Below, piece after piece: positions 29,101-58,291 of a DNA stretch of 64,000 bases. The stretch is from positions 124,001-188,000 of the forward strand of contig NW_021836000.1 in NCBI RefSeq assembly GCF_006345805.1, in the 5' to 3' direction. The position numbers and the translations under genes were made by a program. The notes beneath the pieces were generated by a model. That model did no database searches. It worked only from the letters and a program-made list of their open reading frames with translations, and was not told the DNA's origin. The stretch is from Octopus sinensis. Taxonomy: Eukaryota. Positions within the stretch are counted from its first letter, which is position 1; the number at the start of each line of letters is the position of its first letter.

Positions 29101-30061
29101 TAAACTTTTTTCTTTAAATTTATTTAACGAATGCTCAATTCTTATTTTCTTTAAATTAATATTTTTTTGACAAGCTCTTCATGATGCTATCATCAATGTC
29201 AAACAGAATTAGTTGTGATTAGCTTATTCTACGAATTTGCATAAAATGAAAAATTTGAATAAATTAAATCTTAACATTTGTAGTTAGTATTTTTGCTATA
29301 AAATACATGAAGGTATTTCTAGTAGTTTACATAAATCACGACAGCTGATATCAAATGTTATTTGTTAGTTAGTAGCCTCGAACTTCCTGACATGCAAAAA
29401 GTTGGCGTTATTACGGCAGAGAGCTTTGCCCGTCGCTCCGATAGATTTCGAAACCTGCGCGTGGCAACGACATTGGTGGTAGTGCAGGACAGCAGAACAA
29501 ATGATAGACAGAAATCGGATTGGAGTTAAATATGTGGATGAACTTTTTTATAATTTTTTCTCCATGTAATCGGGTTTAGGGCAAGGATGATGTTTGCAAG
29601 AAAGTCTTGCGAGAATCGCAAGTTCCTAAAAAGTTTAAAAATGCCCAAAGTCAACATAGATGATTTTAATGAATTGTTAATGATTTTATAATAATTTTTC
29701 TATTATTAATAAAAAGTTAGTGAATTAATATTAGTTAATATACAACGTGTATACCAGAATGTTTCCTGTTCTTGTGTGGCTTTTTATTCTTATTTTCCTT
29801 TATTAAAATCAACGTTTAATTTTGGTTTGTATGATTTATATTCTCGATATTTTTTTAAGATTATGTTTATCTGTGCATTTTATTAAAACTTAAATACATT
29901 GTTCATTTGAAAAATATTTTAAACAAGAAATTTTTCAAGTTGATTATTATTCGACTAAACAATGATTTATTTTTATTAATACTGCTTTTAATTTTTTGTA
30001 TTCCTCTTAATATTTTAGTTCTATTTTAATATCTACAGTATGGTTCAAAAATATTACACCC

Positions 30062-31275: not shown

Positions 31276-31769
31276 TCAAAAATATTACACCCCTTGACTT
31301 TTTGACAAAAAATCAATTTTCTATACTAATAATTGATTAAACTATTTTTATGCAATTTAGTTCTTATTAGAGTTGATTTACTAATTTTTATTTTTTTAAA
31401 TTAAAAATCAATTTATTTTATATCTGTTAGTAAAAACATGAAAAATTGCCGCCTCATAAATAGTACATCATTTAAAAAGTCAGTATTTGGTGTGCCCTCC
31501 TTTATTTTTTGATGACTGCTTTTAGTCTCGAGGTCATTGATTCCACCAATTTGATACTATTTCCTTTGGAATTTTTTTTTTCCATTCTTAAATAATTAAA
31601 TTTTCTAGATTTTTTTGTTTTGTGACGTCAAATGTTTCAATTTTTCTTTTTAAATAGCACCACAGGTGTTCAATTGGATTTAAATCTGGCGACATGCTCG
31701 GCCAGTCCATTTGCAAGATTTTTTTCAGTCAAAAAACTTTTAGTATTCTTTGCAGTATGCTTCGGATCG

Positions 31770-32488
31770 TTATCTTGTTGGCAGAGCTCTTTTGACCTCA
31801 TCTCGGAAGGTCGGTACAAATAAACCCTGGATCAAGAGTGAACGCTCCTCAGACGTCTTCAATACCGTCCCCAGAGTTATTATTCTTGACAAGACTGCGT
31901 TCCCCCCGTTGTAAAAGCCAACAGTACAGAACCTTAGTACAGACACTGGGTCATAAGGGTTTGATCCCAACATCTTATCAAGAAGACAACACAACTTATC
32001 CAATGGTTGCTTCTCTACGTACTTTAAGGAGAATTTAGCGACAAGGTTTTGATCAGGGTTAAATGACGGTGACAGACGCGCCATTGCTGAGTTGTATCTC
32101 TCGATTAAGGCCGTCACGGCCTCGGGGTTCCTCGATTTTACTTGACTATATCGGATCGGGAAGAGTACCCGCATAAAGGCCTGAGCCCATTCGCTCGCTG
32201 CAGGATTCTTCAAAGACTCGGCAGGTCTAGGCCTGCCTATTGATATAGGGTCTTTGGCTCGAAATATCTTAAAAGCTTTTGCTCCCAGCTTGTACATCTT
32301 CGTGGTGGGTTGCTGAGGAAATACGCCAATGCGTATGCGATAAGCTCCTGATTAAAGTAATCAAGCCTCCCAAGCTCGTCGATTACGTGGGTTCCGATAC
32401 TACCAACAGAGAATGCGTTGATCCAAGTTCCACTCGATTCGCATTTTCCAGTCACTAAACAGGCACGTCTGTGTTGGTTTGATTGGTT
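31770..32488 (-). other. Endogenous viral element: rhabdovirus/Mononegavirales-like nucleoprotein fragment, copy 1 (175-aa ORF 31770-32297)
   Basis: DKLCCLLDKML...SVLRFCTVGFYNGGNAVLSRIITLG...LIQGLFVPTFRDEVKR parallels the conserved rhabdoviral N core (KIVAAxDMF..xxLRxGTxxSRFKDCAAL...WI...xDExxR); GC-richer and intronless. Confidence 0.75.
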
Positions 32489-34393
32489 CAGAAGCCTCTC
32501 ATATTTTCAGCAATATAATTTTTTCTTTAACACGTTTTACTGGTCGTAATAACGTTTTTTTACATGGTTTTCGATTTTCTAGTCCAAAAGAATATAAGCA
32601 TTCCTTATTGTTGATCGAGAAAGTCGTAAATTGTGCTCATTCAATGTAATTTGCAATTTCTTGTAAAGTGGAAAATGATTTTGATCATATTTCGTCAATA
32701 TGCGTTTTTAATCGCCAGAGTAAGTTTTTCTGGACGACCAGAACCAACGGCACGTTCAAAAGGCATTCCATTTTTATTTCGCGCTGAGTTGCTGCACGAA
32801 AGATTTTGAAACATTGAATTCTTTAGCGATTGTTTCTTTGTGAGCCTCCTCGCCTTAAGTGTTCCGCAATTAAATATTTTTTGATCAGGAAACTTTGAGA
32901 TGACATCGTGCTGTATTTTGAAATTAATTATTAAAGAAAAATCAAGTAATTATAAAAAAAAGTGTAACAAAAATAAGTGTCGCAGTAATAGGGATTCCAG
33001 GAAATAGCGATCGTTAGTAATAGTGCGCATAGTATTCAAATATAAATAAATTAACAATTTATAAATCTATTTAAAAAAAAAAAAAGTATTTTTTTTTGAA
33101 AATGTTTTTAATTTTTGACAAAAATAATCAATTTTATTTGAGCAGGATATATCATCGATGTGCAATATGAAAGGGATCAGATTATGATTATGAGTCAATG
33201 CGAATTTACCGTCAACACTCAGTACCGCCAATGAAATCGTTCTTCAGGCTCCGGGCTGAATATACTGTCGTTGGGCTTTTACAGCACGACAGGGTCCAAA
33301 TTAGTTCGACGAATCTGTGATCAATCATGAGGCCCCTTACGGCTGGATATTAATAGGATAGCTATCGTGGAAAAGCTATAAAAATTTTGTTCGAATAAAC
33401 TCGCTTATAATCTTAAATTTTTGTTTTTTATGATGGCAATCGAAATATGACCAACTATTTGCTATTTCACATAAAAAAAAGAATTTGAATTACTTTCCAT
33501 ATTTCATTTTGTTTAAATAAAAATAAATCGAAATCAAAATACACTCCATAGCAGATTAAACCGCTGAAAATTGACTAAGATTGTTAACAAAAAGCGTCAT
33601 TAATACATTTAAAAAAAAAACGTTCAAAACAATAAACGATCTATCTTAAGCAATATTTCATTATTCCTGTACGCTTTAAAGCAGATTTTGTAGTAGCTAT
33701 TTATTAATTTATAAAATTATCAAATTAACGAAAAATCGTCCTGCCAGTATTTGTCTTTAAAGATGTCTCTATTTGGACAATTAAAATTTTTATAATTATT
33801 TTACTTCGATCGCTATTCCTGAGATCTCTATTTACGTAATTGATTTTTGTGGTTGTAGTTTAAAGTTTATAATAGACAAATTGACATGAAAATGCTATAG
33901 CTGACGAATCAGTAGTAGATTGAGAGGCATAAACAGCAATGTGTTACGTTCGGTGGCCTAGACTTATTCTCTGAGAGGAGTCCTTGTGTATCTGGACAAT
34001 TCATTCAATATTATTAAAGATTCCATTTGAGATAGTTAAAGTTTTCTTCTTATATCACTTGACTGAGTTGACAGCTATAAGGAGTACTTTGCATTCAGAT
34101 TTCCAAAATGACTTCATCAATGCAAACCGAAACACCTACAGATGCACATAGTTTTTGACTTAGTTTGATGACGATTCTTCAATTAAAATATTTTTAACAG
34201 AATTTCCAGGTAAGCTCAAACTATGGATCAGCAACTTCCTAAGTGGACGAAGGTATAGGGTATACCTCAGAGGACTGAAGTCAGGTCTTCTGCCTAATGG
34301 AGTACCGTCGGGTTGCTTTTTAAATATTTGAATTAAATTGACTATTCATATCTAACCTATTTCTTATCGATGAATCTACACATTTTAGGACTC

Positions 34394-35590
34394 ATGTTCA
34401 CAAAATATATCATTCAAATGCTAAAAATAAAAATCAGCCAACATAAAACTAACTTAACCAGTTTATACGATTCTAAAAGTAATCAACGATGGATAAATTT
34501 CATAAAATATTATTGGCTTGTCAAAAATCTAATTTTGTAGCAAAAATTTCGGCCAGAATGAACTTCAGGATAATCTAGCTCTGATTGATCAACATAATTT
34601 AGAGTTCGAAAAATACCACCTTTTATAAACTGGGAATCAATTCGTTTGCAGACATGGTCTCATCTCATTTTTATTGATAAAAATCATCAGACAAACAAAG
34701 AATTCTCACAGTTACATATTTTTAGGGCAAATGGACGCAATCGTTATGAAAAATATTCAAAATATTTTTCAGAAACTGAACTCGATTCTCCAAAATATGA
34801 TTTTCCATATCTTTTGACTGGGGAGATCAAAATTTAGTCACAAAAGTCAAAAAACAGGGTCGTTGTGGGTCGAGTTGTATATTCGAGGCGATCTGTAAAA
34901 ATGACTATTTTTCTAGCTTGTCAGTTTCGAAGGTCAATACACAATCAAATATGGAACATTGACTAGTTTTATGAAGAAAATGTGCTTGATTGCTTTAATT
35001 TTAACGTATGTCAAGGTGGATACATTGAAGATGTTTATGACTATATCATTCCCAATGATGAGATAGATAAAACTGCTGGGTATCCTTACAAAGGAAAGGT
35101 TACAGAATTCAAATTTATTGTAGAAAAAAACATGTCAATACAAGAACAATCCAGTTAGAGTCTTAAAAATATGTTAATTGACATACAAATATATAATTTT
35201 TTTTAGTTTAGGCAAAAGTGATAAAAGATTAATCGAAGGGAGGGCAGCAGCCTGGCGGATCGCCAAACTGTTCCCCGGATAACGGCGATCGAAAACCGCT
35301 GAAAAAGCTAGTCCATTGACAGCCATTGACATAATATTCTGAATTAACAGTATTAAAAACGTTAATGGAAATTGTCCCTTCACAGTTCTTATCGACTCAT
35401 CATCTATTAGTTTTCAATTGTATCGTGAAGGTTATAAAATTTCTACAGGTCAATAGGTGTCCATGGTAATGCCCATTGTGGCACAGAATTAAATTATGTA
35501 GTTACTCTTGTCGGATATGGGGTAGAAAAAGGCAACGAATATTGCCTCATTAAAAACAAGATGCCGGATTTAAAACTAAAAAAAACAGTT
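34394..35590 (+). pseudogene. Cathepsin L/papain-family cysteine protease pseudogene
   Basis: Prodomain IDQHN...LGINSFAD; FDW...VTKVKKQGRCGSSCIF, EENVLDC, CQGGYIEDVYDYII, YPYKG, LNYVVTLVGYG...YCLIKN. Catalytic motifs altered, frameshifts, CRE insertion. Confidence 0.8.
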
Positions 35591-36249
35591 GGGGTCGACG
35601 CTGCGCGAATTGCTGGCTTTGAAAAAATAGCACGAAAACAAAAATAAAAGGGCGACATTGGCATGGGAAGATTTATTATCAGTTTATCCAAACTTTTATT
35701 TTCTTTACCGTCTTCTCTCTGCTATTAGTGCGAAAAACTGCTATCTCCCCCTGATGCCAACTTTTCCCTTTTGTTGACAGTGATTTTAATTCTTTTTTCT
35801 CATTTTTCAGGGGAGACCAATTAATTTTAAATATTGATTATATAAAAAAAAGTTTAAAAAGTTTATCCAGAGAAAAAAGGAGATATTACGCACATTAAAT
35901 TTATAACAGAGTATATAACAAAAAAAGTATATAAAAAAAATATAATAAAATATAAGATCAAAAATGATAAATATATTGTTAATTATGTTTTGAATTGATA
36001 TAAAAAACGCCTTCAAAGCAATCTTTAGGCAAAAAGCTTAAATAGCCAATAAACATAAGAACAGTAAATAAAAAAAAAAAATAGCAAATCACAAAAAATG
36101 ATTAAAATTAAATAAAATTTGATCTAATTAATTGCTTTTTGATTTAATGTAATAGAAAAAATATAAAATGAAATTTAAAACAATTTAAGTAAAAAAAATT
36201 AACATGAGATTTGCTATCATTATAAAAAAGACTGAAAACAATAAATTTT

Positions 36250-36650
36250 CTTTCGCAATTTCCGATACCGAACTGAGGAATCTTGACTCATGGTGTACAC
36301 AGGCATCAGAAAATCAACAACGAATCTCTCCACAGGCTCAGCAATTTGGCGCCAATCAGCCATGACATCATAGACGGCCGCTGGAGAGTATTTGGGCACA
36401 TCCTAAGAATGGACCAAACTGCACCTGCCTACCAGGCCATGGAAGAATACTTCCTGTCAGATTGACTAGAATTTCGCGGACGGCCCCGAACAACAGTGCC
36501 ACCTGTTCTGCAACACGACCTAGTTTGCGAGGGGAAATCCCTAAACAACTGCGATGAATTGGACAAACTCTGCAGGTGGGCCTAAAACCGCAGAAGGTGG
36601 AAAACGATGGTTAAGAAGGTCGTATCGTATGTGACACGCAAGGAAACATG
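36250..36650 (+). mobile_element. RTE-like LINE 3' fragment
   Basis: RWRVFGHILRMDQTAPAYQAMEEYF...RGRPRTT. Confidence 0.75.
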
Positions 36651-37094
36651 ACTTATTCTGTTCATTTTCCTACGAGAAGTGCTATAATAATACTTCTTTT
36701 AAGCTTAACTAATTATTTCATGGCTAATTGGTGACCTTAGAAAGTGTTTGCATAAAAATTCCATCTTGGAATGTGGCAGAGTGGGTTAATACAGTAAAAT
36801 GACTATGAAGATGTTATTTATCAATAAACAAGAAAACAAATAAAATGAAGGATTATTGTCATTTTTTAAGAGACGTACACCATTAAAAGAAATGGCTCCT
36901 AATGATGAAAATTGGTACTGGAATTCATTGATATTAAAAATTTTAAAGAGTCTGTTTCATTCTCAAAACAATTATATAAGAATTCGTGACATTCAATTGA
37001 GTGGAATCCTAATAGATTATCAAAACGTTCTCCAACAAGTTCATTAAAAGTAAATAGGTTATTAATAAAAATCGACCATGTTCATATTCTATTT

Positions 37095-38560
37095 TTGTTG
37101 TTGTTGCGTAACTCCGATCTCACATCAAGTTATGAGACCAGCAGATTGCAGAAATAACAGCGCCCTCCCAGATTGCTCCTATAGGACCTCCGGGGAGTGA
37201 ATGGCAAATTTTGTGCGGAGCGAAAGAAGACCAGGACAGCGGAATAGATGGGCAGTTGTGTGCTTGTCAGCACAGCAAATGGGACAAAAGGGGGAGATCG
37301 AGATGTCCATTTTATGAGGAGTGATGACCAGAACGGAAACGAGCCAAGTTTGTCTGGCCCGAACGGCTAAAAAGCAATTCAGAAGGGTGAACGTCAGGAG
37401 GAGATTTATTGAGTACAGAGTTAGGCGTCAGCTTAAGAATTGCTGACGTAGATATCGAATCGTGAATTCTCTTCATTGGATATGGACATTGGTGCAGGCC
37501 ATCAATTTTAGCAAGGATCCGGGAATATAGATTCGCCGGCGTGTTCTTCACTGAACGAGAATTTCCGTTTAGCACATGTAAGGCAGAGCAAGGATGATAG
37601 GGAATTCGAGATCCAAATAAAAATTGCGCTCCTCTCATATTTAGATAATCATCAATTGGATTTTCCTCGGGGGTTCACATAAGAGCTTCAATGAGAGTGA
37701 AGTTAGGAACAGCCCTAAGAAATCATCTCCATGGCATGAAAAATGATTTAGCTCTTCGATGTCCAAACACCAAACCAGCTTGATCGGATATCTGCAGTAT
37801 TTTTCCATCTCGGTTTTCTTTCGACAGCCAAAAGATAGGCATTTATAATTTAGGTCTCCTGCAATCAGTGCAAATTGGTTGTTTTTGAAGAAATCAGCAC
37901 TTGAGTTTTTGTTTTCAGCTAATTTCTTAGAGTAAATTCGCCCAATCAGAATCGGAATCTAGGAGGTGGATGGAATCTGTAGTTTTATTATTCTTCATTG
38001 AGGGACAGCCCTATATTTAGCCCGGTGTTCTAATGATTCACAATTGATGCATAGTTTCGTGCTTCCTCTCGAATTGGGGATTCTTTCCTATCATGAAGAC
38101 CGTTACAAGTAAAGCATCCTATTTATGCTTTGAAAAACGCGTGCTATACGCCCATAGGCTTGACATTTTTAACAACGAGTCTCATGCTTACAGAGCAATG
38201 CGTAGTCAATTTTCTAAAGCCAACGTTTAGTCCTAGTCGGATTAATGAATTTGCCTCACGTATCAAAGAGGATACTTACTTTCATACTAGTAAGCTTTTT
38301 CCAGACTTCATGAAACGTTCCACTTTAAATCCCGGTGAGAGTATCGTTGGGAAGAACTTCTAGAGTTCTTCATTACTTGCCCAGTATGGAAAATTCCTTA
38401 GGAAGATCTCCGATGAACGTAACTTAACCTGCCGTATTTGATGGCACTCAGAGCCAAAAAGTTTTAGCTCATCACCTCTATTTGGAAGTTTCTACCCTCC
38501 ACATGAGATCTGAACTCGAGTATAAATGCGCCATTCAATTTGGGTGAAATTCTAGCTTTT
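37095..38560 (-). mobile_element. I/Jockey-like LINE remnants (gag knuckles + 3' end with (CAA)n tail)
   Basis: CQAYG, CINCESLEHRAKY; LARFRSGHH, HTTAHLFRCP; TTGTTGTTG tail at about 37095. Confidence 0.65.
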
Positions 38561-39229
38561 AGAGGAGTTTAAATTGAGCATGGTATGTTGTATTTCTGTA
38601 TTTCGCAAAGTATTTGGCTGTTTATTATCAGATTGAGAGATATAGTTTCACGGGGAGTATCAGTATCTTATTTTCAATGTTAAGATTATTTTGAATTTTT
38701 GACATCACAAGAACGATGTGCTAAAATAAGACTTTTTCTTTCACATTACAAAATTTTTGTGAAACTCCTGATGTGAAAACATCCTTTCTTTGACATGAAT
38801 CTTTATAAAATTTTTTACTGTACTTATATTATGAAGATATCTAAAAAGCTACGTAGAGTTTTCTTTATTTATCTGAATTATTAATTTTTTTATAAATATT
38901 GTTTTTTAAGTATTTTGTCAAGAAAATTCAAAAGAGAGTTCTCTGTAAAAATCTCGCTAAATTTCACGCTGTCTACTAGAGGTTTAAAGTCTCTGGGTAT
39001 ATCCTCCAGGTAGATTATAAACAAAATAGAAAACAAAAATTTCTTTGCGGTATGCTATGCGATGTGGAGAAAAGCTGTGAAGTAGTTTTTCTCAGTGTTG
39101 TTGCTACTTGCCTGTTTTTCAAAAGTTTTTATATAATTCTGACGTTAATCAAATTTAAAAAATTGGTAGCTAAATGATTTTCCTTTATAAACTAAATAAA
39201 AGGTTTTTGTAATGTCTATTGAAAAGACC

Positions 39230-39980
39230 TCTATGCATTTTGCGTATTCTTCTCATAATGCCCATCCCCACTGTGTACTCGATAACATCGGCAATATCTA
39301 CTTTGGAAAAACCTACATTCATTCAGACACCCAGATATTGTGCGCATAGCCTTGTTTTGTACTGATTTAAGTGCCATTGTCGAGTTTATGAATAGGCAGG
39401 GCGCCCAGCTTGGACTTGCATAACTTAATACGGGCGTATGTATTGTTTGTAAACTCGATTGAGAAGTGGCTTCTGGGCGTCTGTAATGTGACCATTTATT
39501 GCTTTTAGTATGTTTGTGCGTCTGATTGCCTATCAGAAATGTTAGAGACATGCTTGTTGAAGGACATAGTTGGATCAAAAGTAAGTCCGAGGATAGTAGG
39601 GTTTTTGCATAATGGTAGGTCAGAACCAATGAGAGATAACTTTGGGTGAAGGTTTGATTGTCTTCTGTCGGAAGAAAATAAGGTGACCGATGATTTCGAG
39701 TCTGTTCTCAATTAACCAATTCTCAACGGAGTATAGTAGTTGCTGGATGTTGAGAGAGGCTGATATGTATAATCTACGTGTTTAGAAGCAATGATAATTT
39801 CATCTTCGTAAGATAATGTCAAGTTGTTTGGGTCATTAGCCGGAAAGTCATGTAAATATAAGTTAAATAGGGAAGGGGACAACACAGAGCTCTGCGGTAT
39901 CCCACTTGGAAGATAACGTTGTTTTGAACATCTGTAATTCATATTTTGCAGTTGGAATATGTCTCCATAGTGACCCATTG
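39230..39980 (-). mobile_element. LINE reverse transcriptase fragment
   Basis: GIPQSSVLSPSLFNLYLHD, YEDE (degenerate YADD), PTILGLTFD, VLSYASPSW, VQNKAMRTISG. Confidence 0.8.
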
Positions 39981-40075
39981 AAAATTCAGCATTTTACAAC
40001 TTTTTTTATTTATTTTAGATTTAATTACATTAATTAATTTATTTCAAATAAAAATGATATGTTCTAATTATTTTA

Positions 40076-40860
40076 ATGCTCAACATTCTCTTCTGCATAA
40101 TCTTATTTCATTCATACATCGCCAATTTGGATTGTAATTTGTCTCTCTTTAGAATGTTATACTTGATTAATTCATCATTATATATTTTAGCTCCAACTGT
40201 TTTTATAATGAAACAATTAAATGATGATTTGAAAACAATTAACATTTTTGATGGTGTCACATTTACAGAAAATCCACGATTAAGAATTTGATTTCTCTTA
40301 AAAAATTGTTACATTTTAACAATTATATATAGTCGATGCGCTAGTCATTCTCTACACAAACTAGTTGAAGATTCATTTGAAGGACTAGAATCGTTATTGT
40401 ACATGTATATTATTTATTTATATTCTATTGATTTCTGTTTGAATGTAGAATGCTTAATTACATCAATATCAATACTTTTTCTGGTGTTCCAATTACTTAC
40501 ATGTTTCACAAAAATAATTAATTTAAATTTAGGCATATGCCGAGCGGATCAGTTTTTATTCCTTTCAATTTTAAGGAGTAATAAGCTATTTAAAATAAAT
40601 TATTTAAGAAATCGTTTAGGAATCCATATGTTTCCCGATCAACATCTCTGTTTCTTTGAAAATACTGCACAGCCATTTAGGTTTGTTTTAATTTATTTTT
40701 CGTTTTAGCTTCCAGTTTTCAAACCACACATGGATATTTTTTAACAAGAATTTTGTTATGCTGTCTCATTCAACTATGCAGACTCAAGAATCCTACAGTA
40801 AAAAACTGTTTATTTAATAATAGTTTGCAATAATTGTCTACCAACACTAACTAAACATAA
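40076..40860 (+). CDS. Putative small secreted LRR-like protein (multi-exon)
   Basis: Hydrophobic N-terminus MLNILFCIILFHSYIA; LHKLVEDSFEGLESL LRR-like segment; micro-intron pattern. Model incomplete. Confidence 0.35.
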
Positions 40861-41735
40861 TTTGTTCATCTGATATAGAACTACAAATTGATATCAAATT
40901 TTGACCAAATAATATTTAATTAACGTTTTTTCTTGAAATAAATTTAATTTTACGAAATTCGAATTTTTATTTGATAGTAGTAATTAGCAAGGAACCTTAA
41001 GATTACTTTGTTTATAGAAAAGTCATACACACATCGCCATTTCACTGTGATAAGTAGTTGCGAATTCAAGTATTGATTGCAATCCAGTTTTACTTAAAAT
41101 GAAAAATTTTATTCTAGATTTAGTTACATTAATGTGTTCTAATTCTTTAAATGCTTGGGAAATTCTTTCGCCATCTGACACATAAAAATAAAAAGTAATT
41201 ATGAAGATACCAAAAATCCAATAATGAAGTACATTTCAATAATGAAGAATCCAATAATGAAGTAATTTGAACAGACTGATTACATTGAAGTTTAATCAAA
41301 CTCTGCTGAAAATTAAGTTCCTGATATTCTTTAAATGAAGTCACGAAAGGTTGAACGATCCAGTTTGGAATTGGATCTTCAACAAAAAAGAAATCATCAA
41401 ATTTTGTCTTGAAATTTCAGATGTTTGATTATCAGACTTAAAAGAAAATTATCAGGTGGATTAGTGTCCGAGATGATATTCAAGCATTAGGAACATTGTT
41501 GTTACTTTTTTTAATTTCATTACCAATAGTAATAACTTTTTTTAAAAGCCATTATTATTTGATTAACATTTTTGTCTTTACAGACTCTTCTGGCGCCTAA
41601 GTTGAGTAGGTTTCAGTTTATTGTTTCACAAAATTCTATGGCAAATCATGCATTTTGCCTTTATTTCATTATTTGAGGCTACTTTTGCCGTTATCTCCTA
41701 ATTTAAATTAATTAATTTTGTTTTCTTTATTAACA

Positions 41736-44700
41736 AATTTTTATTTTTTTTTTTTTTTTAGCCTATAATATGTTTTATTGTATTATTAAAGTCAAAATAC
41801 TAAGTAAAGTCAACAACTAATAAATTCTCCCAGCGAGACGGAGGGAACAGCTGTTGCCACGCATGACAGCCAGCAGGATCCTCTGAATGAGGAAAGTAAA
41901 TTCCCTAGGGTCCTTGGACCGCGAAGAACAAAGATGTCCCAGTTTCTTTAGGGAAGTGAGGGTCCCGGAGCAAAGACGCCGGAAGTCTCGACAACGATTG
42001 GCCCAAACCAAAGTCATCCATCAAAGACTGATATTTCCGGCACTTCGAAAGCTCAGCCTTATTAGCACGAGACCCAGCAAGAGAGGCCGATTCGTTGATG
42101 AAAGACTTTGAGAAGGTATCCACACAAGTGGAATCCCAGACCAAAGGTCTCCCAGAATAAAACGAGAACAACGTAGAGCCGTCCGGCCTTTTCCCGTCAC
42201 CACGGTCGAGACCCTTAGGCTCAAGGACAGAAGGGTAGCCGGCCTTTTCGAGTGAGTCGAGAATGATTCTGTTAATCGCCGAATGGCGTGGAATACGACC
42301 CGCGCTTTTCTTGCAGGAGAGGGCATGGAGCCCGTATACGTCCATAGTAGATCCGCACGGCAGGGGTGGGGACTACAGATCGGAAGTCCGAGGCGGAGGC
42401 AAATGCCAAAACGGAGGGCGTCGGAGTCAAGACAGGTGTCCAAATGGGTCGAAGGAAGGCAGTTAAGCCAAGAGCCAGAATGCGGTTGGCGGCTGGCACG
42501 GTAACAAGCCAGTCTGTGCTGGTTCAGGAGAGCCTCCAACGAGTCCGCATGATGCTTACTAAGAATTTTATCCCATTCACGTTGGAGGGACCTATCAGAA
42601 GGGAACTCAAGCCCTTTTTCCTTCAAAGCAAAAGTGCAGAATTAATATCAGAGTCCAAACGAGATCGGGCGATTTTTCAAGAATCTTATGGACAAGAAGA
42701 TACAATCCTGAAGACGATGAAAGGAAAGCGGGAGAGAAATGTCGAGAGCCGAGCGGAGCCCAAGCCCACCAAAAGGAACAGGAAGTTTGGCCTGACGCCA
42801 ACCGACATCATCGAACTTGACGTTAAAAATAATCTCGGCTGAAGAACGCACCAGAGCGTCAAAAGACTCCAAAGCAGAGGAACAGAAGCAACAGGAACTC
42901 CTTAGGACATAATTGATCCTCGGAATCAAAAGAAAGTTTTGAGGATAAAAAAAGCGGGATGGGATCGATGTCCACAAGTTTATCACAAAGAGAAGCAAGA
43001 GCATTTCTCTTGGAATCGAGAATACGAGGAGACCGATTGGTGGTGGATCGGGGCACCAGGATTTCAAGTTCAGAATAAGAGGTCTGCCTCAGATCGGGCA
43101 AGAGGCCACGAAACTGGGCAAAAAGGTCTTCGAAGGTGAGGTCTTCGACGTTAAGATTAACGATTTCAGATTTTAGAGAATTGATTTCAAGACCAATAGA
43201 TGACAACGCCGGGAGTAGAGATTGCAAGTCGTTTAGCAAAATGTCGGGCGGACCACCAATAGTATAGTCGTCCAAATACCAAATATTAAGAGGGGACGCA
43301 ATCCTGCGGGCGACAAAGTCCACCGAGAGGGCAAATAATAAAGGACCCAAAGGATCGCCTTGCTGTACGCCACAGGAAGACGAAATGAAAGAATCGCCAG
43401 CAACCAAGAGGGTCGGGTTACCATAAGAAAGAAAAATGAAGGGCAGCAGAGAAGGAATTCTGGCCTTGCAAACCTCAAGAAGATGCTTTCTATTGAGCGA
43501 ATTGAAAGCGTTCTTCACATCCAATTTTAATAATAACTGGGGCCTCTGAGAGACGAGCCGATTCAATGAAACACCGGGCAGCGTGGACCGAGGCCTCGCA
43601 CCCACCAGGTACCCCCACACCCAACTGAATGGGCTGGAGTTCGTCGCTAATAGAAGGAATTACAAGCTTGCATCCGACCTTTGCAAACAAGCGACGAAAA
43701 ACGTTCCCGACGGCAATAGGTCTGATGCCGCCGTCTTTCTTCCCAAAGCAGACAGGTTCGCAGAGAAGAAGAGCAGTCTGGCATGCTCGGATATGTCCCA
43801 CGCGGAGAAATAGGTTATGGCAATGGCAATGGATTGAGAAAGACGGTTTCCAGCCTCAGCAGTATTGGAGATGAGGTCCATATTAGTGAATGGGACGGAG
43901 ACCGTCAACACCACCACTACTGTTCCCCCTGAAAGATTTCAAAGCAAACAAAAGTTGTTGGACAGATGAAGAGGCGATCGAGACCTCCTCAGGGGTCCGG
44001 GCACAAAAGGCAGGGACATCGCCAGCCGGGTGCTTGGCGCTGAGAATTTTGAGGACATCCGGGGTTATCGAACGGACGGAATCGGAAGACGAAAGAATAC
44101 GGACCGCAGGGCCGACATCATGCGATAAGGCAGGAATTGACACGTTTGCGTAAACGAATACGATTATCTTTAAGAGTAGTTGGTTCATGGGACTTGCCCA
44201 GAAGAGGAGGCAGAATGAAGGAATCCTCCATGAACTTATTAATATTTCCTTGATGGAAGAGGAAAGGGATTTTACCGAGCCCAAGCCTTGAACTGGGGAG
44301 CCCAGGGCAAATATGGCAAAGCAAAACAAACGGTTCCAATCGGAATGGACTGAACACAAATGACTGACTCGATCAAAGCAGACAGAGCCTTCGCCGCGGA
44401 AAAACGGGCAGAACGAGGAATTCTTATAGGAATACGATAGGACGCCCGGTAATCACGAGCGAGTCTTAAGACAGACTCTGGATTAAGCAGGAAGGGGTCC
44501 GGGCGAAGGGATAGGATTAGTAAAATCAGAGGACCCGGTACAGATGGCAGGAGCGAAATATGACGGGGGGAAAGAAGAGCAAGCAGAGCAAACCCATCGG
44601 GAAAGGGAAGAGGCAGATTTCTTAGAAAGCTTGATGCAGGATAAATGGAAAAAGGCATAACAACGGTCACAACGGATGGTCTTTTTCCGATTATTACGGA

Positions 44701-44846
44701 TATTGCAAACAGAACAGACAGACAGACATAGATATGGAAAATTAGAATTAGCAATAAATGGATTATTGGTGAGATAGAAAGAAAGAGAAAGAGGAAAAGA
44801 AAAACAAAAAGAGAAAGGGAAGCAACAATGGATTATTGGATAGCAA

Positions 44847-44878
<32 letters not shown>

Positions 44879-44924
44879 GTGCACCACAACAGCAACAACG
44901 TGCAGATTATTTTAGTTTAAAAAA
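41736..44924 (-). mobile_element. Near full-length CRE-like non-LTR retrotransposon (PHD-RT-CCHC-RLE)
   Basis: PHD finger CSVC..RCDRC..FHLSC..WVCSAC; GIRPIAVGNVFRRL, QLGVGVPGGCE, LDVKNAFNSL, GVQQGDPLGPLLF, WYLDD; RPDG/WDSTCVDT; poly(A) at about 41738-41759; candidate TSD TTATTAACA; many 1-bp frameshifts. Confidence 0.93.
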
Positions 44925-45002
44925 TTATTAACAGCTCTTTTCTTTTTTTAGACGGATTTAAATGATTTAATGATCTAAATTTCCATTTTGTTAAGGAAAT
45001 TA

Positions 45003-45939
45003 CAGTGGAACTTGTCTAAACCGAACTCCGACGGGACCATGAAAATAGACCGGTTTATAGAGAGATCCGGTTTATCAAGGTTTTGAAATTTATGAACATA
45101 ATCTTACCAAAAGGACTTAAAGTAAGATTCTATTTATTAAGAAAATCTGTCAAAAAAGATTGTTTAAGGTTTGATTTTTTTCACAATGGCCGTGTGTTCA
45201 GAATCATTAATTCTTTATTGACGGAAGGAGAGAAGGATCCTCCGTACAAGCGAAGTGCTGTATATCTTCGAGAATTGAGCGAATGTCAATGCGAGTTAAT
45301 TTGACTTCGTCTGCTTTTTGCGACTCGTCATCGTGGTTAGAATCACTCGGACTCTCCGCATCAGTTGGTTTTCTTGGAAGATGCTGCTCCAAGATGGCAT
45401 TTTCCCATTCGTCGAAATCTAGCCCTCTAAAACCATTCCCAAGTGATCTTATTTATATCATCAACTTGCATTTATTTTCAAAAACGCTTTTTCTTGCTGT
45501 TTCCATTGTCATCGTATATGTCCAGATATTTAGTAGAGTTTTTCAAAATATCAGATACAGTGCTGGTCCCAATACCATATTTTTGGCTTAGATCTTTCTG
45601 TGTAACTTAGGTGTGGATTGATAATCTTTTATGAGTTAAACTTTATGGTTCAGGTCGAGTTCACAACGAGTACGTTTCATTGATATTAAGTCAAATAAAA
45701 ACTTATTAACTTTTAAAATTATTATTTTTAATTTTTAAAAATACTTCTTTGTTCGGTTTGCACAGTGTGAAAAAAGCCGTTGGGACTTGACATTACGGCC
45801 GGTTTCAGAATATAGAGGATCCGGAATAAAGAGATGAAATTTATATTGAAAAATACTGTAAAAAATTGGGACCGGAGAAAACGGCCGGTATACGGAGAGA
45901 TCAGGTATATTTAGGGGTTGGTTTAGACAAGTTCCGCTG
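45003..45939 (-). mobile_element. Internally deleted Tigger element
   Basis: TIR CAG(T/C)GGAACTTGTCTAAACC with TA TSD; HTH KYGIGTSTVSDILKN and C-terminal KQSFLTDFL. Confidence 0.9.
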
Positions 45940-46063
45940 TACTTTAATTTTTTAAACTTTTTTAATAATTCTTTAAGTGTATAAAATATTTTTTGTAAAG
46001 TTTGTCATTGAACCCTCAATCGTGATAAAATAAGAATTAATATTAATTTAGCTTTCATCTCAT

Positions 46064-48533
46064 TTATTTCCATGAATTCGTGATTGATGAATTGATTTTC
46101 TTAAACTCAAAATGACAAGATTCCGTGATTCTTTGGCTTTCGAATTTTTGCCTTTGGAAGTAAATATAGGATTTAATTGTGTCTAACCGACAAATATTTA
46201 TAAGATCGGCATTTGTTAACAACTAAAATATTTTTTTCAGTTCTGTGCCCCTTTATATAGGTTACTGATTGAAATTTTTTACTAGTCATCCACACTTTAC
46301 GGTCAACTTCAGCAGTTGCGAAATCTGCATACAAAGTTCTCAATTTAGAATTTTTACGTCTTTTAAAGTTGTTTAGCTAATCATTGCTTGTTTAAACTGT
46401 TTAATTTTATATTCTTGCATTTTAACAAAATCGTTTTATCATCGTAAAAAATTAACTTCGAAACCCAATAAATTTTATTCAAGTGAAAAGTAATCGCGGT
46501 CAAGAAAAACTTGCATTATCCCCTTATAAGATTCTAGAAGGTTCAAACTTTTTCAAAATTATATCCGGAACTGTCCTGAAATCTAACAAGTTTGTTGTTT
46601 TCAGAGACTAGAGGATGATAATTATTTGAGAAAAATACTGAAACTTATAAAAAAATCTTTCAAGCAACTCAATGAATCATTTTTTAAAAATAGAAAATGT
46701 ATACAAAAAATATGAATATCAAATATTGAAAATATCAACAAGTGTTGATGATCGAGAAACATTCTAACGGGCGATTTCATCTTTCTTATGAGGATTAATT
46801 TCATGGGCCAAATCCTTGTTCATTATTCCAAATGATGAACAAAATCTTAGATTTGGACTAAATTCCCATTTTTAACAGACAGGCAAGTCCCAAAAACGTT
46901 TTTTCCAACAAAATTTCTTTCATTGCCTCAGCAATTTGTCTAAGACGAAATTTGAAAATTAAACAGCCGTCATTTTCCAAGTCATACTTAGTCTTTATTT
47001 TAATAAAAAATACACTAAATGAGTGTGTGAATTGTCTAATATAAGACGCGATACAAACATGTGAAGCCACGGGGTGTTCTACACGCACTGACAAACAAAA
47101 AACTAAAATATTAAATTTTTAAAAACCATATAAAAACGGTTGTGGGAGCATCAAAGGAATCGTTTTCATTGATAATCTTAGATAAGCCATTATTGGCTTA
47201 TTTAATCTAAACTTAAATATTTAGTTTTTATTTACTTTTCTTTTCTCTTCGACGACTTTCCAGCAATTTTCTTTCATAGGAATTTTTTTCACTTTCACAA
47301 TCTTCCTGAATTTCACCGTCTTCTAAACACTCAACCAGTTTGGATCTTCAGTCTTTTTTTCTACATTTTCTAGAATTTGAGTTCTTTTTGATAATCTTTT
47401 CTTTTTAACATGTTTCTTTTTAGTTTTTTTTCTGAATATTTTGAGGTCGTTTTTTGTTTGTTCTGTTTTCTTGATTCTAGTACGTTCCAGTTTTTGTTCT
47501 TTTCTTCAACAAATTGTTCCAAAAGTGTACTCTTTCTTTTTTTCTTTTTACTGTAATTTTCTAGATTTTCAATTTCTTTTATCTTCTCAATTTCAGAATT
47601 ATCTAAAATTTCACTTTCATCTTCTTTCTTAACAGTTCCAGAATTTTTTGAACTTTCTCATTATTGTTTTCAAAACAAGTATGGCTTTCGTTCTTTCCAA
47701 TATCCCATCTAGATTGTCTAGAGACCTTTACTGTCTAAATAAAGTTTTTTGACATTTTTTCAAATCATACATTATTTTCCTCCCTCCAATCTCACACAAA
47801 ATCTTCTCAAGTCTGGTAATCGCCAAGGGATTAAACAGTCCTTTGTAATTGCCTACAGTCTCACTGAGCTTATAAATATTCTAATCAATAATCGAACAAT
47901 TTAATCATACCTGATATGTTTGATCTTGTCTTACGTTTAATACTAGTAACTGTATTAAGGAAATTCAACATAAAGTTTTTTAGCCTGGTTATCAACTAAA
48001 AATATATTAATTCTGACTTGTCTTTGCTAGAAATTGGTTTTGAGGATTTCTCCCAATGTCATCAATTGAGAAATGAGGTGATTCAGAAAGAGATGATTGT
48101 TAAATATAAATATCCACGTTTTTAAAACATTGATAATTTTTTCCTAAAAATAAATTCGGAAAAAACTCGGTCTTGTATTGGACAATTGTAAATGTTTATA
48201 AATGTATCAGAAATATTGTATAAAAATTGATAAATGAAAATAAAATTATCTTCGGATTCCTTTAATGAGCCGACAAATAAATCCAATATATAAAATGCCC
48301 ATAATTTAAGTTCTTGTGGGCACTAATAAAATATGTAATTTTTAAAACTTGAAAGATAAATTTTTCAAGGACAAGGACGATATGTTTATAGTGAGATATT
48401 GCATTAATTCCTGTCTTTTTTAATTCAATCAAAGTCGTTTGGCTGACTGATGGGTATTTTATGGTTGAAAGCTGTTAAAGTTATGGATATCAATTTTTAT
48501 CACCACGTGAATAAATTTATTTACATTGTCCAT
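46064..48533 (-). CDS. SCAF4/SCAF8-like SR-related CTD-associated factor (CID + K/R/S-rich + RRM-like), multi-exon
   Basis: MDNVNKF...INAISHYKHIVLVLEKFIFQCPQELKLWAFYILD...DTFINIYNCP...EKIINVLKTW resembles the SCAF CID (AIKFYKHVVQSVEKFIQKC...KIVRVLNLW); 3' end approximate. Confidence 0.75.
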
Positions 48534-50394
48534 TAGAATTATTGTGTAATCATAGTTTATTAAATAAACAAGTTTTATTTGAAAATAACAAAAAACCAAA
48601 AAATAATAAAAAATCAAAAATATTGTATCTTCATCGTCTGACGAATACTGAAAATAAATTATAAAGAATTCTCTTAAAAATAAATATCTTATATTTCAAG
48701 AGAGTTCGTTTCGCCATTATGTGACGTTAGTTTAAAATTTACTTCAAATTTTAACAAGCGTCGATATGGCATTTATTCTGGTTGGATTACACGAATTTAG
48801 GATTTTTATTGTAATTTATAATTTAATGCTTCCCATTTCAATCTTATAAGCGATATCAGTTATGTTGGCTACATAGAATAAAATCGTTTCATATTTTAAG
48901 ATAAATTATATTTCAAATTTCTCATTTTTCATTTCTCTGCTTTATAAAAATAGTTTATTATTAAGGGTTTTTAATTTTTAAAATTTAAAAATTTTAACAA
49001 TTTCAATATTTCTAAAATATTGTCCTCGACGCTAAGTCATTGCTTTCCATAAGTCTTCTAAATTGTACGCCTGTATATTAGACACTCACTATTTTTGTAA
49101 CCGTCGGTATTCCACAATGATAAGTAATCATTTAGCGGATTATTTGTAGCCTATTATAATCAATCAAATAAACAAATCAAATATGACTGGGCAATCCAAA
49201 TTAGTTATTGGCAACACAGGAAGCAAGCAATTCACATCTAAACCATCTGGGACCAACAGTAGATCTTAGACGGTAACAGAAAGGTTAATATCTCTATTAT
49301 TTATTTCCATTAACATTTGAAAGATTATTTTTTGGTTAGTCCAAATTTATTAAAGTGTAATTAATTATTTAATTTTTAAAGTTGAAATTGAATTGTTATA
49401 ATTTAATAAAACTATTCTTTCCAATTCCTCAACAAATAGAATTTTTCAATCAAAAATATTATCGTTAAAATTCAGTTTGGTTCACTTTAGCGAAATATTC
49501 TGACAAACCAACACAGGTAGGGAACGGTTTATAATAAAAAAATAAAAGTTAATTAAAAAATTTAGATTTCAAATTGAGAACAATTGGCATTTCGTTTTTT
49601 GAAAGCAAAATTGTGAGAAATTGTGTCTTATTGAGTTGTAAAGAATTCTTAAACACATATTAATCATGAACCAAAATTGAAACATTGAATGACCTTCATT
49701 TATAAATCCTGTCTCTATCTGAGATTAGATTAAACATAGAATTATAATTGTTAACTTCATTTTTATTAAACGATTAAAAGAAATTAACGTTCATGTAATT
49801 TGATATCAAAATATTAATACATTCATGTAGAATCAGCACTTTAAAAGTTAAAAAAACAGGGATTGCCTGTAGTGGACTATTTTATAATATTTTATTATAA
49901 ACGAAAAGAAGAAACATCTGATAAACAAATAGAACTTTATTCAAATTCAAATTTCAAAGAAATTAACAATTATACTAAAACTTTGCTCAATAAATGTACA
50001 TCCTATTCAATTACTTGATAAAAAACTGATCTTGTCGGGTTATTTAATTATTTAGGTAAAAAACCAAAAATAGAACAATGTTTGATTCCGTAAAGAAAAC
50101 TTGTTCTATGGTAGATTCCGATAAGAAACTAGCAAACAATCAAAAATATAATTCTTTCATTAAATCAATAAAAAAATATGTATTGCCTGAACATTCAAAT
50201 TTATAAATTGTAACAAAAATTTGAGAAACATTGTAGATAGAGTGTAAGGACCTCAGAGACTGCCATCATAATCATCATGCAATATTAATAATGATTTAAC
50301 TATTTTAGTTAGTTAATAGAACTTAATAGAATTTTAGAGTTTTCTGGATGAAGATAATACATGGCTGATCCGTTTTCTTTTATCTAGTACTGAA

Positions 50395-51333
50395 TAAGCT
50401 GTACGGCTTAGGAATATGACATCGATGCTTTTCACGACTACGGTTGGAACACCTCAGGGAGACTCTCTATCTTGAATTTTATTCATCTTATACGGGGAGG
50501 CCTCACTGAGAGCTCTCAGAATTAAATGTGGAGGACCTGGCATGTGGCGGATCAATGTGGAGGACCTGGCATATGAAATAATTGGTTCCATTATATATGC
50601 AGATGGCATAGACTTTGAGTCAGAAAAGTATTTGGAATTCAAACTTGTTTTTAAAAAAATTCCCAACGAATTTAAGAATTGGTCCCTACATGTTAATAAA
50701 GAAAAGACCGAACACATAAGAATTACAAGGGAATTAAAACATTGATGAAAACTAAAGGAAAAAAGGAAACTGAGATCGCTACTTTATGATAGCAAGGACA
50801 TGATATATAAAAGAGTGCTATCCAGTCCAATGTATAAGAAATGCAAGTCGACCAAAGCTAATAAAAACAAAACTCTGAATAAGGCTATACAACTCGTATA
50901 TAAAACCGTACTTGTCTACAACTCGAGTACATGGAGAGTCACAGAGTTAGAACTCAAGAAAATAGACACATTTTATCGAAAGCTATTACGCAATTTACTC
51001 AGCCTAGATTGGGCAACAAAGATTTCCAACAAGAAATTGTACTCTATGAAATAATTGGTTCCAATAAGTACTGAAATTATCGAATCAAGATGGAGGCTAT
51101 TTGGTCATGTACTTAGAATTGACATAAACACTCCCGCAAAAATTACAATAGACAATTACTTTGACAATGAAAACAAAACATCCTTCAAAGAAAAACCTAG
51201 AGTCACTCTCCTTGTTCTTCTAAACAAGGTTCTTAATAAAATTGGAAAAAACCTAGAAGACGTGAGAAACAGATACCGATGGAGAAGCTTGGAGAATAAA
51301 ATCTCGAAACGTGTGGCACAAAAAGGACCTTAG
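50395..51333 (+). mobile_element. RTE-like LINE RT fragment
   Basis: GTPQGDSLS, YADG, LVYNSSTW, RWRLFGHVLR. Confidence 0.85.
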
Positions 51334-52394
51334 TTAATTTACATTCTTTGGTTCTGTGAACGTGCTTTTAAAAATAATAGAACTCGTATACACAAAATAT
51401 TTAGGAAATTTGTGCACTTTAAACACTTTAAACACTTTAAACACTTCAAGTGCAGATCTGTTAAAAGTTTGATTAAATTTTGTAAAAAATATTTTATTTC
51501 TTATATCCCGAAAAATTCTTTTTCCTATCAGAGGATTTCGTGTGCAATTGTCCGCGGAAATTCACACGCTATCCTAGGGTCATACTAATTAATTCAATCG
51601 ATTTTCTTAATATTGGTTTTATTCCTTTTTCCTATTAAATTTGAATAGAATACTTAATTTTAACTTACTGGTATAAATTTTGAGAAAAGTAGACATAATA
51701 AAAAACTAAAAAAGATTTAGATTGGATCGACTTAAAAATCATTTACTTTTAATTTTAAAAATATGGTTTTCCCATAATAAATCCATAATTGTTGTGGTTG
51801 CCACTCCTTTAATTGTAGACTACTGACATATTTATAAATAGTAAACTTTTAAAAATTATAAATTTAAAATGATTCAGATACTCAAAAAACAACAAATCTA
51901 ACATCCTACAAAAATTAATAAATTTAAGATATTTTCAAAGAAGAAAATAAGATTTTATTTAATTTAAATTATAATTTTTTTAACATTAAAAAATAATTTT
52001 TTTGACTTTTTACCCTGGGCTGAATATAATAATCAAATCTTAAAATCAAAAATTATTTTGTTGTCTAGAAGAGAATCACATGTTAGATAATACAATGGAT
52101 AAATTGTATATACAAAGTTTTTTTAAATTTGCAGAAACTTTCGCGAGGAAAACAATCAGCTAACATCTGAAAATGATCTGTATTCTAAAATATTAAATCT
52201 AAAAAGATATCTATTTTTAGAAAGCGAAGCTGATAGCGATGCCGATAGCATTGAAACAATTTCAGTGTTTGGGGATACTTCCTTGTCTGATTTTTAGCAT
52301 TTTTATAATGTTGGAATTTCAATAATTTTCTGTTTTATATAAGATTTAGGGTTATTAATAAGAGAATTATCACTGAATATAATTTGAAAACTCA

Positions 52395-53025
52395 GAATAT
52401 GCCTTCGTCTCGGACTACCGATTTGTAATCCCCACCCCTGCCGGTGTGGATCAACGATGGACACATACGGGCTCCATGCCCTTTCCTGCAAGAAAAGCGC
52501 AGGTCGCATACCTCGTCATTCGGCTCTAAACAAGATATTCTCCATGCCCTCGAAAAGGCAGGGTATCCTTCTGTCCTTGAGCCAATTGGTCTTGACCGTG
52601 GTGATGGAAAAAGGCCTGATGGCTCGACGTTGTTCGCTTTCGACGATGGTAAACCACTAGTTTGGGATGCCACGTGTGTTGATTCCTTCTCTAAGTCGGC
52701 CATCAACGAATCCGCCTCTCTGCCCGGGTCCCGTGCTAATAGGGCTGAATATACAAAATCCGAAAAATACCGGGGCTTGTTAGACGGCTTTTGGTTTTGG
52801 CCAATTGTTGTTGAGACTTCGTGCGTCTTTGGCACAAAGACAGTTGATCATCTGAAGAAACTTGGCCACCTCTGTTCATTACGCTCCAAGGATCCTAGGG
52901 AATTTACATTCCTAATCCAAAGGATCCTGTTGGTCGTTGTGCGTGGGAACAGCTGTTCCATCCGGCTTGCTGGCCGATTAATTTAACCTTTAAACTCTTA
53001 TTGAAAGACTTTTGTATAAAAAAAT
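52395..53025 (+). mobile_element. CRE-like retrotransposon 3' fragment (same family as 41736-44924)
   Basis: GLHALSCKKSAGRIPRH, RPDG, WDATCVD, LIQRILLVVVRGNSCSIRLAG. Confidence 0.88.
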
Positions 53026-55438: not shown

Positions 55439-55745
55439 CAAAATATTTATAATTGCCTACGTGTACACGAAATATATTATTTCATTTAATATTCAAAAAA
55501 ATAAAATATTAAATTTAAATAAATATAAAATAATGCCAATAAATATGCATTAAAAATAGTAAAAATTTTTTATAACTATAATCAAAATGATATAAAAATC
55601 CTTCAATAAATATAGTTAACTTTAATTGTTGATCTTTATTAATTTTTAAAAATTAATTTATTTAAAATAAGTTTAATTAAAAATTTCAATTTAAAATAAA
55701 TAAATACTCCGGCAAACATATAAACCTTGTGGGACGTATACTTTG
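55439..55745. promoter_or_regulatory. Probable bidirectional promoter between SSR1 and RFC5
   Basis: 307-bp AT-rich spacer between divergent ATGs; inferred from layout only. Confidence 0.5.
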
Positions 55746-58118: not shown

Positions 58119-58291
58119 AGAGTTGTAAATGGTATAGTAATTAATTAAACTATTTTTATGCAATTTAGTTTTCATTAAAGTTGATTTACTTACTAATTTT
58201 TATTTTTTAAAACCAAAAATCAATTTATTTTATATCTGTTAGTAAAAAATGAAAAATTGCTGCCACATAAATAGTACATCATTTAAAAAGT

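What the first reader, a model, noticed from the sequence alone, without database searches (positions are those of the whole stretch)
31770..32488. Rhabdovirus-like nucleoprotein captured inside a Tc1 DNA transposon, in two copies
Seen: a GC-richer, intronless insert of about 700 bp sits in sense orientation between the Tc1 transposase N-terminus (..ENMRGF) and its QQDNDPKH motif, where the DDE core should be. It has the same junctions at 58768-59474. Known: the stretch DKLCCLLDKML..LRFCTV..NAVLS..LFVP..DEVKR matches the spacing of the conserved rhabdovirus N core. Inference: an RNA-virus gene was reverse-transcribed into a non-autonomous Tc1, which could supply a promoter and mobilisable ends. 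This would be a DNA-transposon vehicle for amplifying viral sequence (small-RNA source or interfering N fragment), and a record of a negative-strand virus of this host lineage.
Basis: partly seen in the sequence, partly recalled or inferred. Interest (0 to 1): 0.87.

Follow-up and report, generated by a model that had tools for sequence, protein, structure and literature searches.

The report
Rhabdovirus fossil between two unrelated transposons
A broken piece of a gene related to rhabdovirus nucleocapsid genes lies between leftovers of two different Tc1 transposon families and was copied along with its whole neighbourhood, so it is likely an ordinary viral fossil and not a transposon carrying viral cargo.

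Summary
The viral call holds; the 'Tc1 vehicle' does not. About 605 bp of the insert encode part of a very divergent rhabdovirus-like nucleoprotein. A profile of its relatives in this genome retrieves 4 rhabdovirus N proteins among 5 hits in 1.84 billion proteins, and profile-profile probability is 98.5%. The genome holds 32 N-like and 33 mononegaviral L matches. But the first 120 bp of the insert come from a non-LTR retrotransposon, and the two Tc1 'halves' belong to different families (34-40% protein identity). The left one jumped into the retrotransposon piece later: a third copy has the empty site. No copy has both ends. Leads: a mild excess of silent changes in the 175-codon frame (10 of 17), and host genes with 22-33 nt introns, suggesting a co-assembled parasite such as a dicyemid (untested). 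No earlier scan note on this sequence was found.

The parts
31782..32389 (-). Copy A, rhabdovirus-like N fragment (about 605 bp). Covers the region matching residues about 100-315 of a 582-residue relative; broken by an internal deletion with frame change near 32311; cut off at both ends
31770..32297 (-). Copy A, 175-codon open frame from an internal Met of N; the last residues and the stop come from the Tc1 family 2 piece
32387..32506 (-). Copy A, 120-bp piece of a non-LTR retrotransposon (CRE-like; clade name recalled from domain layout), joined in sense and in frame to the N piece at 3 shared bases
32503..32980 (-). Copy A, inner 5' piece of Tc1 family 1 (positions 206-687 of about 1500); left end missing, reading frame broken
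31277..31781 (-). Copy A, 3' piece of Tc1 family 2 (positions 748-1257 of 1269)
30034..30061 (-). Outer 28 bases of a family 2 right end with TA, separated from 31277 by 1.2 kb of a LINE 5' piece
58768..59375 (-). Copy B, rhabdovirus-like N fragment, same junctions and same internal deletion (near 59297); 175-codon frame 59283-58756
59373..59492 (-). Copy B, 120-bp retrotransposon piece, the continuation of 60174 onward
59489..60168 (-). Copy B, 5' 680 bp of Tc1 family 1 with its left end after TA, inserted into the retrotransposon piece; the rest of the element is lost
60174..60540 (-). Copy B, upstream part of the same retrotransposon, outside the Tc1 end
58135..58767 (-). Copy B, 3' piece of Tc1 family 2 with a 170-bp insertion (58292-58461); cut at the duplication boundary, right end absent
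31327..57469 (.). First unit of a tandem segmental duplication; the second unit starts at 58135 and runs about 19 kb past the window end (offsets 25.5-28.4 kb, about 94-98% identity in the long blocks)

Best explanation
This is a non-retroviral endogenous viral element: a fragment of a divergent rhabdovirus-like nucleoprotein gene, likely copied into DNA by a resident non-LTR retrotransposon, that now lies between unrelated pieces of two Tc1 families and was doubled by a segmental duplication. Order of events: (1) inferred: viral RNA was reverse-transcribed and became joined, in sense and in frame, to a CRE-like retrotransposon piece; (2) shown as a junction, inferred as to cause: the N piece was joined to the 3' part of a family 2 Tc1, which runs out to its genomic end, so this is most likely a DNA-level deletion between neighbours; (3) shown: a family 1 Tc1 inserted at a TA inside the retrotransposon piece and later lost about 820 bp including its right end; (4) shown: a 26-28 kb tandem duplication made copies A and B, while copy C lacks the family 1 insertion. 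It most likely does nothing as a mobile unit. If it has a role, it would be as a passive source of viral-matching RNA, which is untested.
For: N identity: 4 of 5 hits in 1.84 billion proteins pass the PF00945 cut-off, one named nucleocapsid of Hymenopteran rhabdo-related virus OKIAV8. Profile-profile probability 98.5%, E 2e-15 over 292 columns; the window protein alone gives 84.6%, E 7e-6. PF00945 is the only Pfam hit in 4 of 4 long genomic relatives, E 0.0008-0.04. The genome has 33 mononegaviral L matches; one tested fragment hits rhabdovirus L chains (6UEB, 5A22) at E 3e-90 and 4e-84 against 3e-8 for the next best. Between the window piece and two other loci, silent sites are saturated (pS 0.84-0.97) while pN is 0.07-0.14, as expected for separate captures from an evolving virus. 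Two Tc1 families. Empty, footprint-free site in copy C. Shared neighbourhoods. A short-read contig bridges the retrotransposon-N junction with 0 differences (probably the same sample, so not independent). CRE-like sequence lies within 150 bases of the N piece in 5 of 14 distinct events (my count), against 12% of background points, P about 0.02 (threshold chosen after looking).
Against: The window protein alone has no Pfam or PDB-sequence hit, and no relative reaches the PF00945 cut-off (13-19 bits against 26). Three word-index homologue searches found nothing, and the profile of genomic copies found no N among PDB sequences. One of the 5 profile hits is an unrelated helicase. Both structure models are poor (pLDDT 35 and 40). 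No poly(A) or target-site duplication marks a retrotransposition event at this locus, so the capture route is inferred. Ten of 17 changes among the three copies are silent (P 0.009 against site counts, 0.066 against transposon-frame controls), which a purely neutral fossil does not predict.
Confidence: 0.8

Rival explanations
1. The viral fossil is kept by the host: the 175-codon N fragment is expressed, or the locus is read into small RNAs, and interferes with related viruses. This can be true together with the history given above.
For: The frame is open in copies A and B with no indel across 594 aligned bases while the Tc1 pieces beside it carry many. Ten of 17 changes are silent, expected fraction 0.29, P 0.009. 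EVE-derived piRNAs are described in mosquitoes (PMC6797480, passages).
Against: Against transposon-derived frames in the same duplication (11 silent, 23 replacement) the excess is not significant (Fisher 0.066). The numbers are small and the test was chosen after looking. Copy C has lost the start of the frame. AT-rich flanks attract indels, real or from sequencing, more than a GC-richer stretch. Copy A lacks the Tc1 left end that could supply a promoter.
Confidence: 0.14
2. One reading: a non-autonomous Tc1 captured the viral gene and spreads it. In its weakest form, an ancestral block bounded by a family 1 left end and a family 2 right end was moved by one of the two transposases.
For: All parts lie in the same sense and look like one element with its core replaced. 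The two termini share 17 of 25 bases. The ancestor of A and B would have had both ends.
Against: Different families (no nucleotide match beyond 17 bases, 34-40% protein identity). The left element is a later insertion. No copy has both ends. Only 3 of 20 examined N-bearing loci touch Tc1 sequence, and all 3 are this one locus. All 3 share flanks.
Confidence: 0.03
3. The protein is not viral but a host or transposon gene with a chance likeness to N.
For: No direct Pfam or PDB hit for the window protein; about 21-24% identity to the nearest N proteins.
Against: Independent rhabdovirus N proteins are the only coherent hits. The copies are intronless in a host rich in tiny introns, scattered and broken, and share contigs with L fragments (C10696, C4577, C12603, C8999).
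Confidence: 0.03
4. Copies A and B are not a real tandem duplication but two haplotypes or individuals joined in the assembly. The viral piece is then a single polymorphic locus.
For: Copy C sits on a separate contig that is collinear for over 29 kb and carries the same NudC-like gene at 96%, so the assembly holds alternative haplotypes. Contig depth of the C form (58-125) exceeds that of the A/B form (about 37).
Against: The second unit begins abruptly inside the Tc1 piece at 58135, and the units differ by large insertions. No read-level test of the boundary was possible.
Confidence: 0.12

Closest known systems
Non-retroviral endogenous viral elements from Rhabdoviridae N genes (Katzourakis and Gifford 2010, PMC2987831; passages read)
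   Same: Fragment of a rhabdovirus-like N gene in nuclear DNA, without target-site duplication or poly(A), as that paper reports for insect EVEs; many N and L pieces in one genome.
   Different: Far more divergent from known N proteins (21-24% identity; below the Pfam cut-off); host is likely not an arthropod; relatives are longer (582 residues) than most N proteins seen here.
Virus-retrotransposon hybrid cDNA and EVE clusters in Aedes aegypti (PMC6797480; passages read)
   Same: Viral sequence joined directly to retrotransposon sequence within a transposon-dense region that also holds other viral pieces.
   Different: There the partners are LTR elements (Ty3/gypsy, Ty1); here it is a non-LTR, CRE-like element. 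piRNA output is not known here.
Rhabdovirus nucleoprotein family PF00945 (VSV N, PDB 2GIC; nearest named hit OKIAV8 N, QMP82261.1)
   Same: Core region aligns, with D252, R267, L281 and E312 of the 582-residue relative invariant across 10 rows.
   Different: Long branch; nearest is an unnamed 494-residue protein, P0004 (a placement the tool flags as unsure).
Non-autonomous Tc1/mariner elements with captured cargo (recalled concept, no call)
   Same: Superficial layout: transposase start, foreign insert, transposase end.
   Different: Ends are from two families, no copy has both, and no new insertion sites were found.

Membership tests
Rhabdovirus nucleoprotein (PF00945) | Score above the curated Pfam cut-off | tested here: not met
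   Window protein: no hit. Four long relatives: 13-19 bits, cut-off 26.
Rhabdovirus nucleoprotein (PF00945) | Remote homology to the N core by profile methods | tested here: met
   4 of 5 library hits are PF00945 members; hhalign 98.5%, with the template built from those 4 hits.
Rhabdovirus nucleoprotein (PF00945) | Two-lobed helical N fold | tested here: inconclusive
   Model pLDDT 40, built with 4 rhabdovirus N rows in the alignment. Top 10 PDB rows are vesiculo- or lyssavirus N but at E 0.02-0.05. BFVD gives 4 hits at E <= 0.001, 3 named rhabdovirus N. TM-scores about 0.2.
Rhabdoviridae | L protein in the rhabdovirus clade, linked to this N | tested here: inconclusive
   One of 33 L matches tested, best hits rhabdovirus L chains. 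N and L pieces share 4 contigs but are never continuous.
Rhabdoviridae | Gene order N-P-M-G-L | tested here: inconclusive
   At C6088 N is followed by a second frame without Pfam match. M and G were not sought.
Non-retroviral endogenous viral element | Viral sequence continuous with host DNA | tested here: met
   Flanked by transposons, with host genes in the same window; a short-read contig bridges the left junction.
Non-retroviral endogenous viral element | Fragmentation or decay relative to the virus gene | tested here: met
   Cut at both ends, internal deletion with frame change.
Non-retroviral endogenous viral element | Source of piRNA or other small RNA (common, not obligatory) | not testable with these tools
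   No RNA holder listed.
Non-autonomous Tc1 with cargo | Both terminal inverted repeats from one family | tested here: not met
Non-autonomous Tc1 with cargo | Both ends with TA present in a copy | tested here: not met
   A lacks the left end, B the right end, C all of family 1.
Non-autonomous Tc1 with cargo | Copies at independent insertion sites | tested here: not met
   3 of 3 copies share flanks. Genome search counts are lower bounds.

The most novel reading that the evidence does not exclude
A tiny-intron parasite (dicyemid-like) repeatedly banks a previously unrecorded, deeply branching rhabdovirus lineage through its CRE-like retrotransposons, by template jumping onto viral RNA, and keeps at least this 175-codon N fragment under selection as an antiviral product.
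Probability: 0.1. Interest if true: 0.72.

Novelty: new member of a known kind. Interest (0 to 1): 0.38.

Why it matters
As it stands, it is a fossil record of an unrecorded and very divergent rhabdovirus-like lineage, with at least two N clades and many L pieces, in a host that is likely a little-studied parasite. That gives bait for finding the live virus in RNA data. It is also a clean warning that two Tc1 fragments in the same sense can mimic one element with cargo. It would matter more if the CRE-like route of capture or selection on the frame were confirmed, since the virus-transposon hybrids in the paper read here involve LTR elements.

Tried and rejected
Direct Pfam and PDB-sequence scans of the window protein: nothing. 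Word-index homologue searches with the window protein (longer lengths), the 582-residue relative and a mixed alignment: nothing. ESM Atlas: no usable hit. Profile of genomic copies against PDB sequences: 8 weak unrelated rows. PF00945 against the genome found 1 match, on the large contig C9, and none of this family. Single-sequence fold: pLDDT 35, not used. The match of alignment A7 to PDB N proteins is circular, because A7 holds four rhabdovirus N rows; not counted. Alignment A2 misplaced one fragment and was replaced by A3. A family 2 left half was sought up to 20 kb beyond the window and in 30 kb of C12462: none, so no larger family 2 element encloses the insert. Sequencing runs: no RNA holder listed; this says nothing on expression. 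A search for a second NudC gene on large contigs with a 46-residue exon found only the two small-contig copies; too weak to prove or exclude a second organism. A terminal-repeat comparison was out of register and was redone. Literature: searches listed no paper whose title or abstract start points to a Tc1 carrying RNA-virus cargo or to rhabdovirus EVEs in dicyemids; the library lacks most subscription papers.

Full report
Observation. Both copies are there, on the minus strand, about 98% identical in each part. The insert is GC-richer than the Tc1 pieces (0.45-0.46 against 0.30-0.32) and holds a 175-codon frame at 32297-31770 and 59283-58756.

The insert is a chimera. A search of the genome with 58768-59474 gave 41 matches; 36 cover only the first 113 bases or fewer. 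These are pieces of an abundant non-LTR retrotransposon. A full-length relative has a PHD-like finger and a reverse transcriptase; I call it CRE-like from recalled domain layout, not from a tree. The retrotransposon piece is 59492-59373. The viral piece starts at 3 shared bases (59375-59373), in the same frame, and ends at 58768. An internal deletion near 59297 changes the frame, so the open 175 codons begin at an internal Met.

The viral call. The window protein alone has no Pfam or PDB-sequence hit. It has 32 matches in the genome, in two clades about 43-45% identical to each other, one with an uninterrupted 582-codon frame. PF00945 (rhabdovirus N) is the only Pfam hit in 4 of 4 long relatives, but below the cut-off. 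A profile of 10 natural pieces against 1.84 billion proteins gave 5 hits at E <= 0.001: four pass the PF00945 cut-off (E 2e-13 to 3e-71), one being the nucleocapsid of Hymenopteran rhabdo-related virus OKIAV8, and one is an unrelated helicase. Profile against profile gives 98.5% over 292 columns; the window protein alone 84.6% over 118. The template was built from those four hits, so this shows extent more than it adds independence. The fold test is weak: pLDDT 40, alignment seeded with the four N rows; top rows are rhabdovirus N in both libraries, at E 0.02-0.05 in PDB and 2e-4 to 8e-4 in BFVD, with TM-scores near 0.2. Context agrees: 33 mononegaviral L matches, none in 14 control genomes; the one L fragment tested hits rhabdovirus L chains (6UEB, 5A22) at E 3e-90 and 4e-84 against 3e-8 for the next best. 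Between the window piece and two other loci, silent sites are saturated while pN is 0.07-0.14. The sequences therefore diverged under strong protein constraint before capture, as separate captures from a virus population would.

The flanks are two Tc1 families. Of 12 loci fetched for the left piece I compared 8 (leaving out the two self hits and two more); all 8 match up to 59489 and none matches the right piece. Of 12 fetched for the right piece, 10 are not this locus; all 10 match from 58767 and none matches the left piece. An intact member of each family was compared: no nucleotide match beyond 17 bases, 34-40% protein identity over the long blocks. Their termini share 17 of 25 bases. The retrotransposon sequence continues outside the left end, at 60174 onward. 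In the third copy (C12462) the two retrotransposon parts are continuous and read like intact elements, with no footprint. So the family 1 Tc1 jumped into the retrotransposon piece after the block existed, and later lost its 3' part. No family 2 left half lies within 20 kb beyond the window or in 30 kb of C12462. Copy A lacks the family 1 left end, and its family 2 right end is split by a LINE piece. Copy B lacks the right end. Copy C has no family 1 sequence.

Spread. A and B begin two units of a tandem duplication: 31327-57469 matches 58135 to about 83060, at offsets of 25.5-28.4 kb. C12462 is collinear with the window for over 29 kb and carries the same NudC-like gene, so it is likely another haplotype. 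Of 20 N-bearing loci annotated (of 32 matches; one overlapping locus dropped), only these 3 touch Tc1 sequence. Contigs of a public run, probably the same sample, bridge the retrotransposon-N junction with no difference and show copy C's deletions, so the junction is not a long-read artefact. The duplication boundary was not tested at read level.

How it was captured. Inferred. Grouping the 20 loci into 14 distinct events, 5 have CRE-like sequence within 150 bases (my count), against 12% of background points, P about 0.02; the threshold was set after looking. At C6088 a full-length CRE-like element lies head to head with an N start and a following second gene, which fits template jumping onto a negative-strand genome. 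At our locus the join is in sense and internal, which fits a template switch or a later deletion equally well.

Function. Most likely none as a mobile unit. One result cuts against a purely dead fossil: 10 of 17 base changes among A, B and C in the frame are silent (counted), P 0.009 against the expected fraction of 0.29, but only 0.066 against transposon-derived frames in the same duplication (11 silent, 23 replacement; those controls are partly non-independent pairs). Copy C has lost the frame's start. I give maintenance about 0.14.

Host. Host genes here have tiny introns (six candidates of 22-33 nt). All 190 match rows from five transposon and N searches lie on contigs numbered 381 or higher; those whose length I saw are 9 kb to 1.3 Mb, while C9 and C23 are 110 and 33 Mb. 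An earlier scan note calls the main genome a mollusc (unchecked). PMC13644364 reports introns this short, among animals, only in myxobolids and a dicyemid. A co-assembled parasite, perhaps a dicyemid, is likely but untested.

Papers. Passages read: PMC6797480, 10.1101/2023.11.03.565523, PMC2987831, PMC13644364, PMC9241645. Abstract and outline: PMC8857657. Others were seen as search listings only. No supplements were opened. Searches listed no report of a Tc1 carrying RNA-virus cargo or of rhabdovirus EVEs in dicyemids; the library is incomplete.

Verdict. New member of a known kind: a rhabdovirus-like N endogenous element in a transposon-dense region. The striking claim, a DNA-transposon vehicle for viral sequence, fails three of three defining tests. 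What remains of interest is the divergent virus lineage, the likely host, and the link to non-LTR elements. Interest 0.38.

Noticed in passing
L079:5137-10000 and L080:1-930 (G000:C6088): A full-length, young CRE-like element (5' part 99-100% identical to 11 other copies, poly(A) at its 3' end) lies head to head with an uninterrupted 582-codon N-like frame, about 95 bases from its start, followed by a second viral-like frame. This is the layout expected if the reverse transcriptase jumped from the 5' end of its own RNA onto the 3' end of a negative-strand genome; template jumping by the R2 enzyme is described in PMC8857657 (abstract). Insertion next to an older viral piece is not excluded.
   Followed up: partly
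L031:2955-3782 (G000:C10696): Nodavirus methyltransferase-like frame (PF19222, E 3e-12) about 1.5 kb from an N-like piece: a second virus family left fossils in the same region.
   Followed up: partly
G000, 33 places: Mononegaviral L fragments, 29 on high-numbered contigs and 4 on the 33-Mb contig C23; a separate, decayed PF00945 match lies on the 110-Mb contig C9.
   Followed up: partly
window:21051-22216: NudC-like host gene with six candidate GT-AG introns of 22-33 nt, inferred from frame continuity. PMC13644364 (passages) reports such short introns in animals only for myxobolid myxozoans and a dicyemid. With 0 of 190 match rows from five searches on contigs numbered below 381, the window likely comes from a co-assembled organism, not the main genome.
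   Followed up: partly
L043:1047-2103 and L048: A second, independent N clade is also fused in sense to a CRE-like piece, in a nearby region of the retrotransposon frame.
   Followed up: partly
window:5491-6906 (minus strand): Two adjacent intronless frames of 340 and 130 codons at GC about 0.41, with no credible Pfam hit; could be another foreign or viral piece.
   Followed up: no
L038:2-1405, L045:2132-3007, L049:675-1292: Long intronless frames of unknown kind directly beside N-like pieces, no Pfam hit; possibly fossils of other RNA viruses.
   Followed up: no
window:57934-58097: Short array of about 41-bp units just before the start of the second duplication unit.
   Followed up: no
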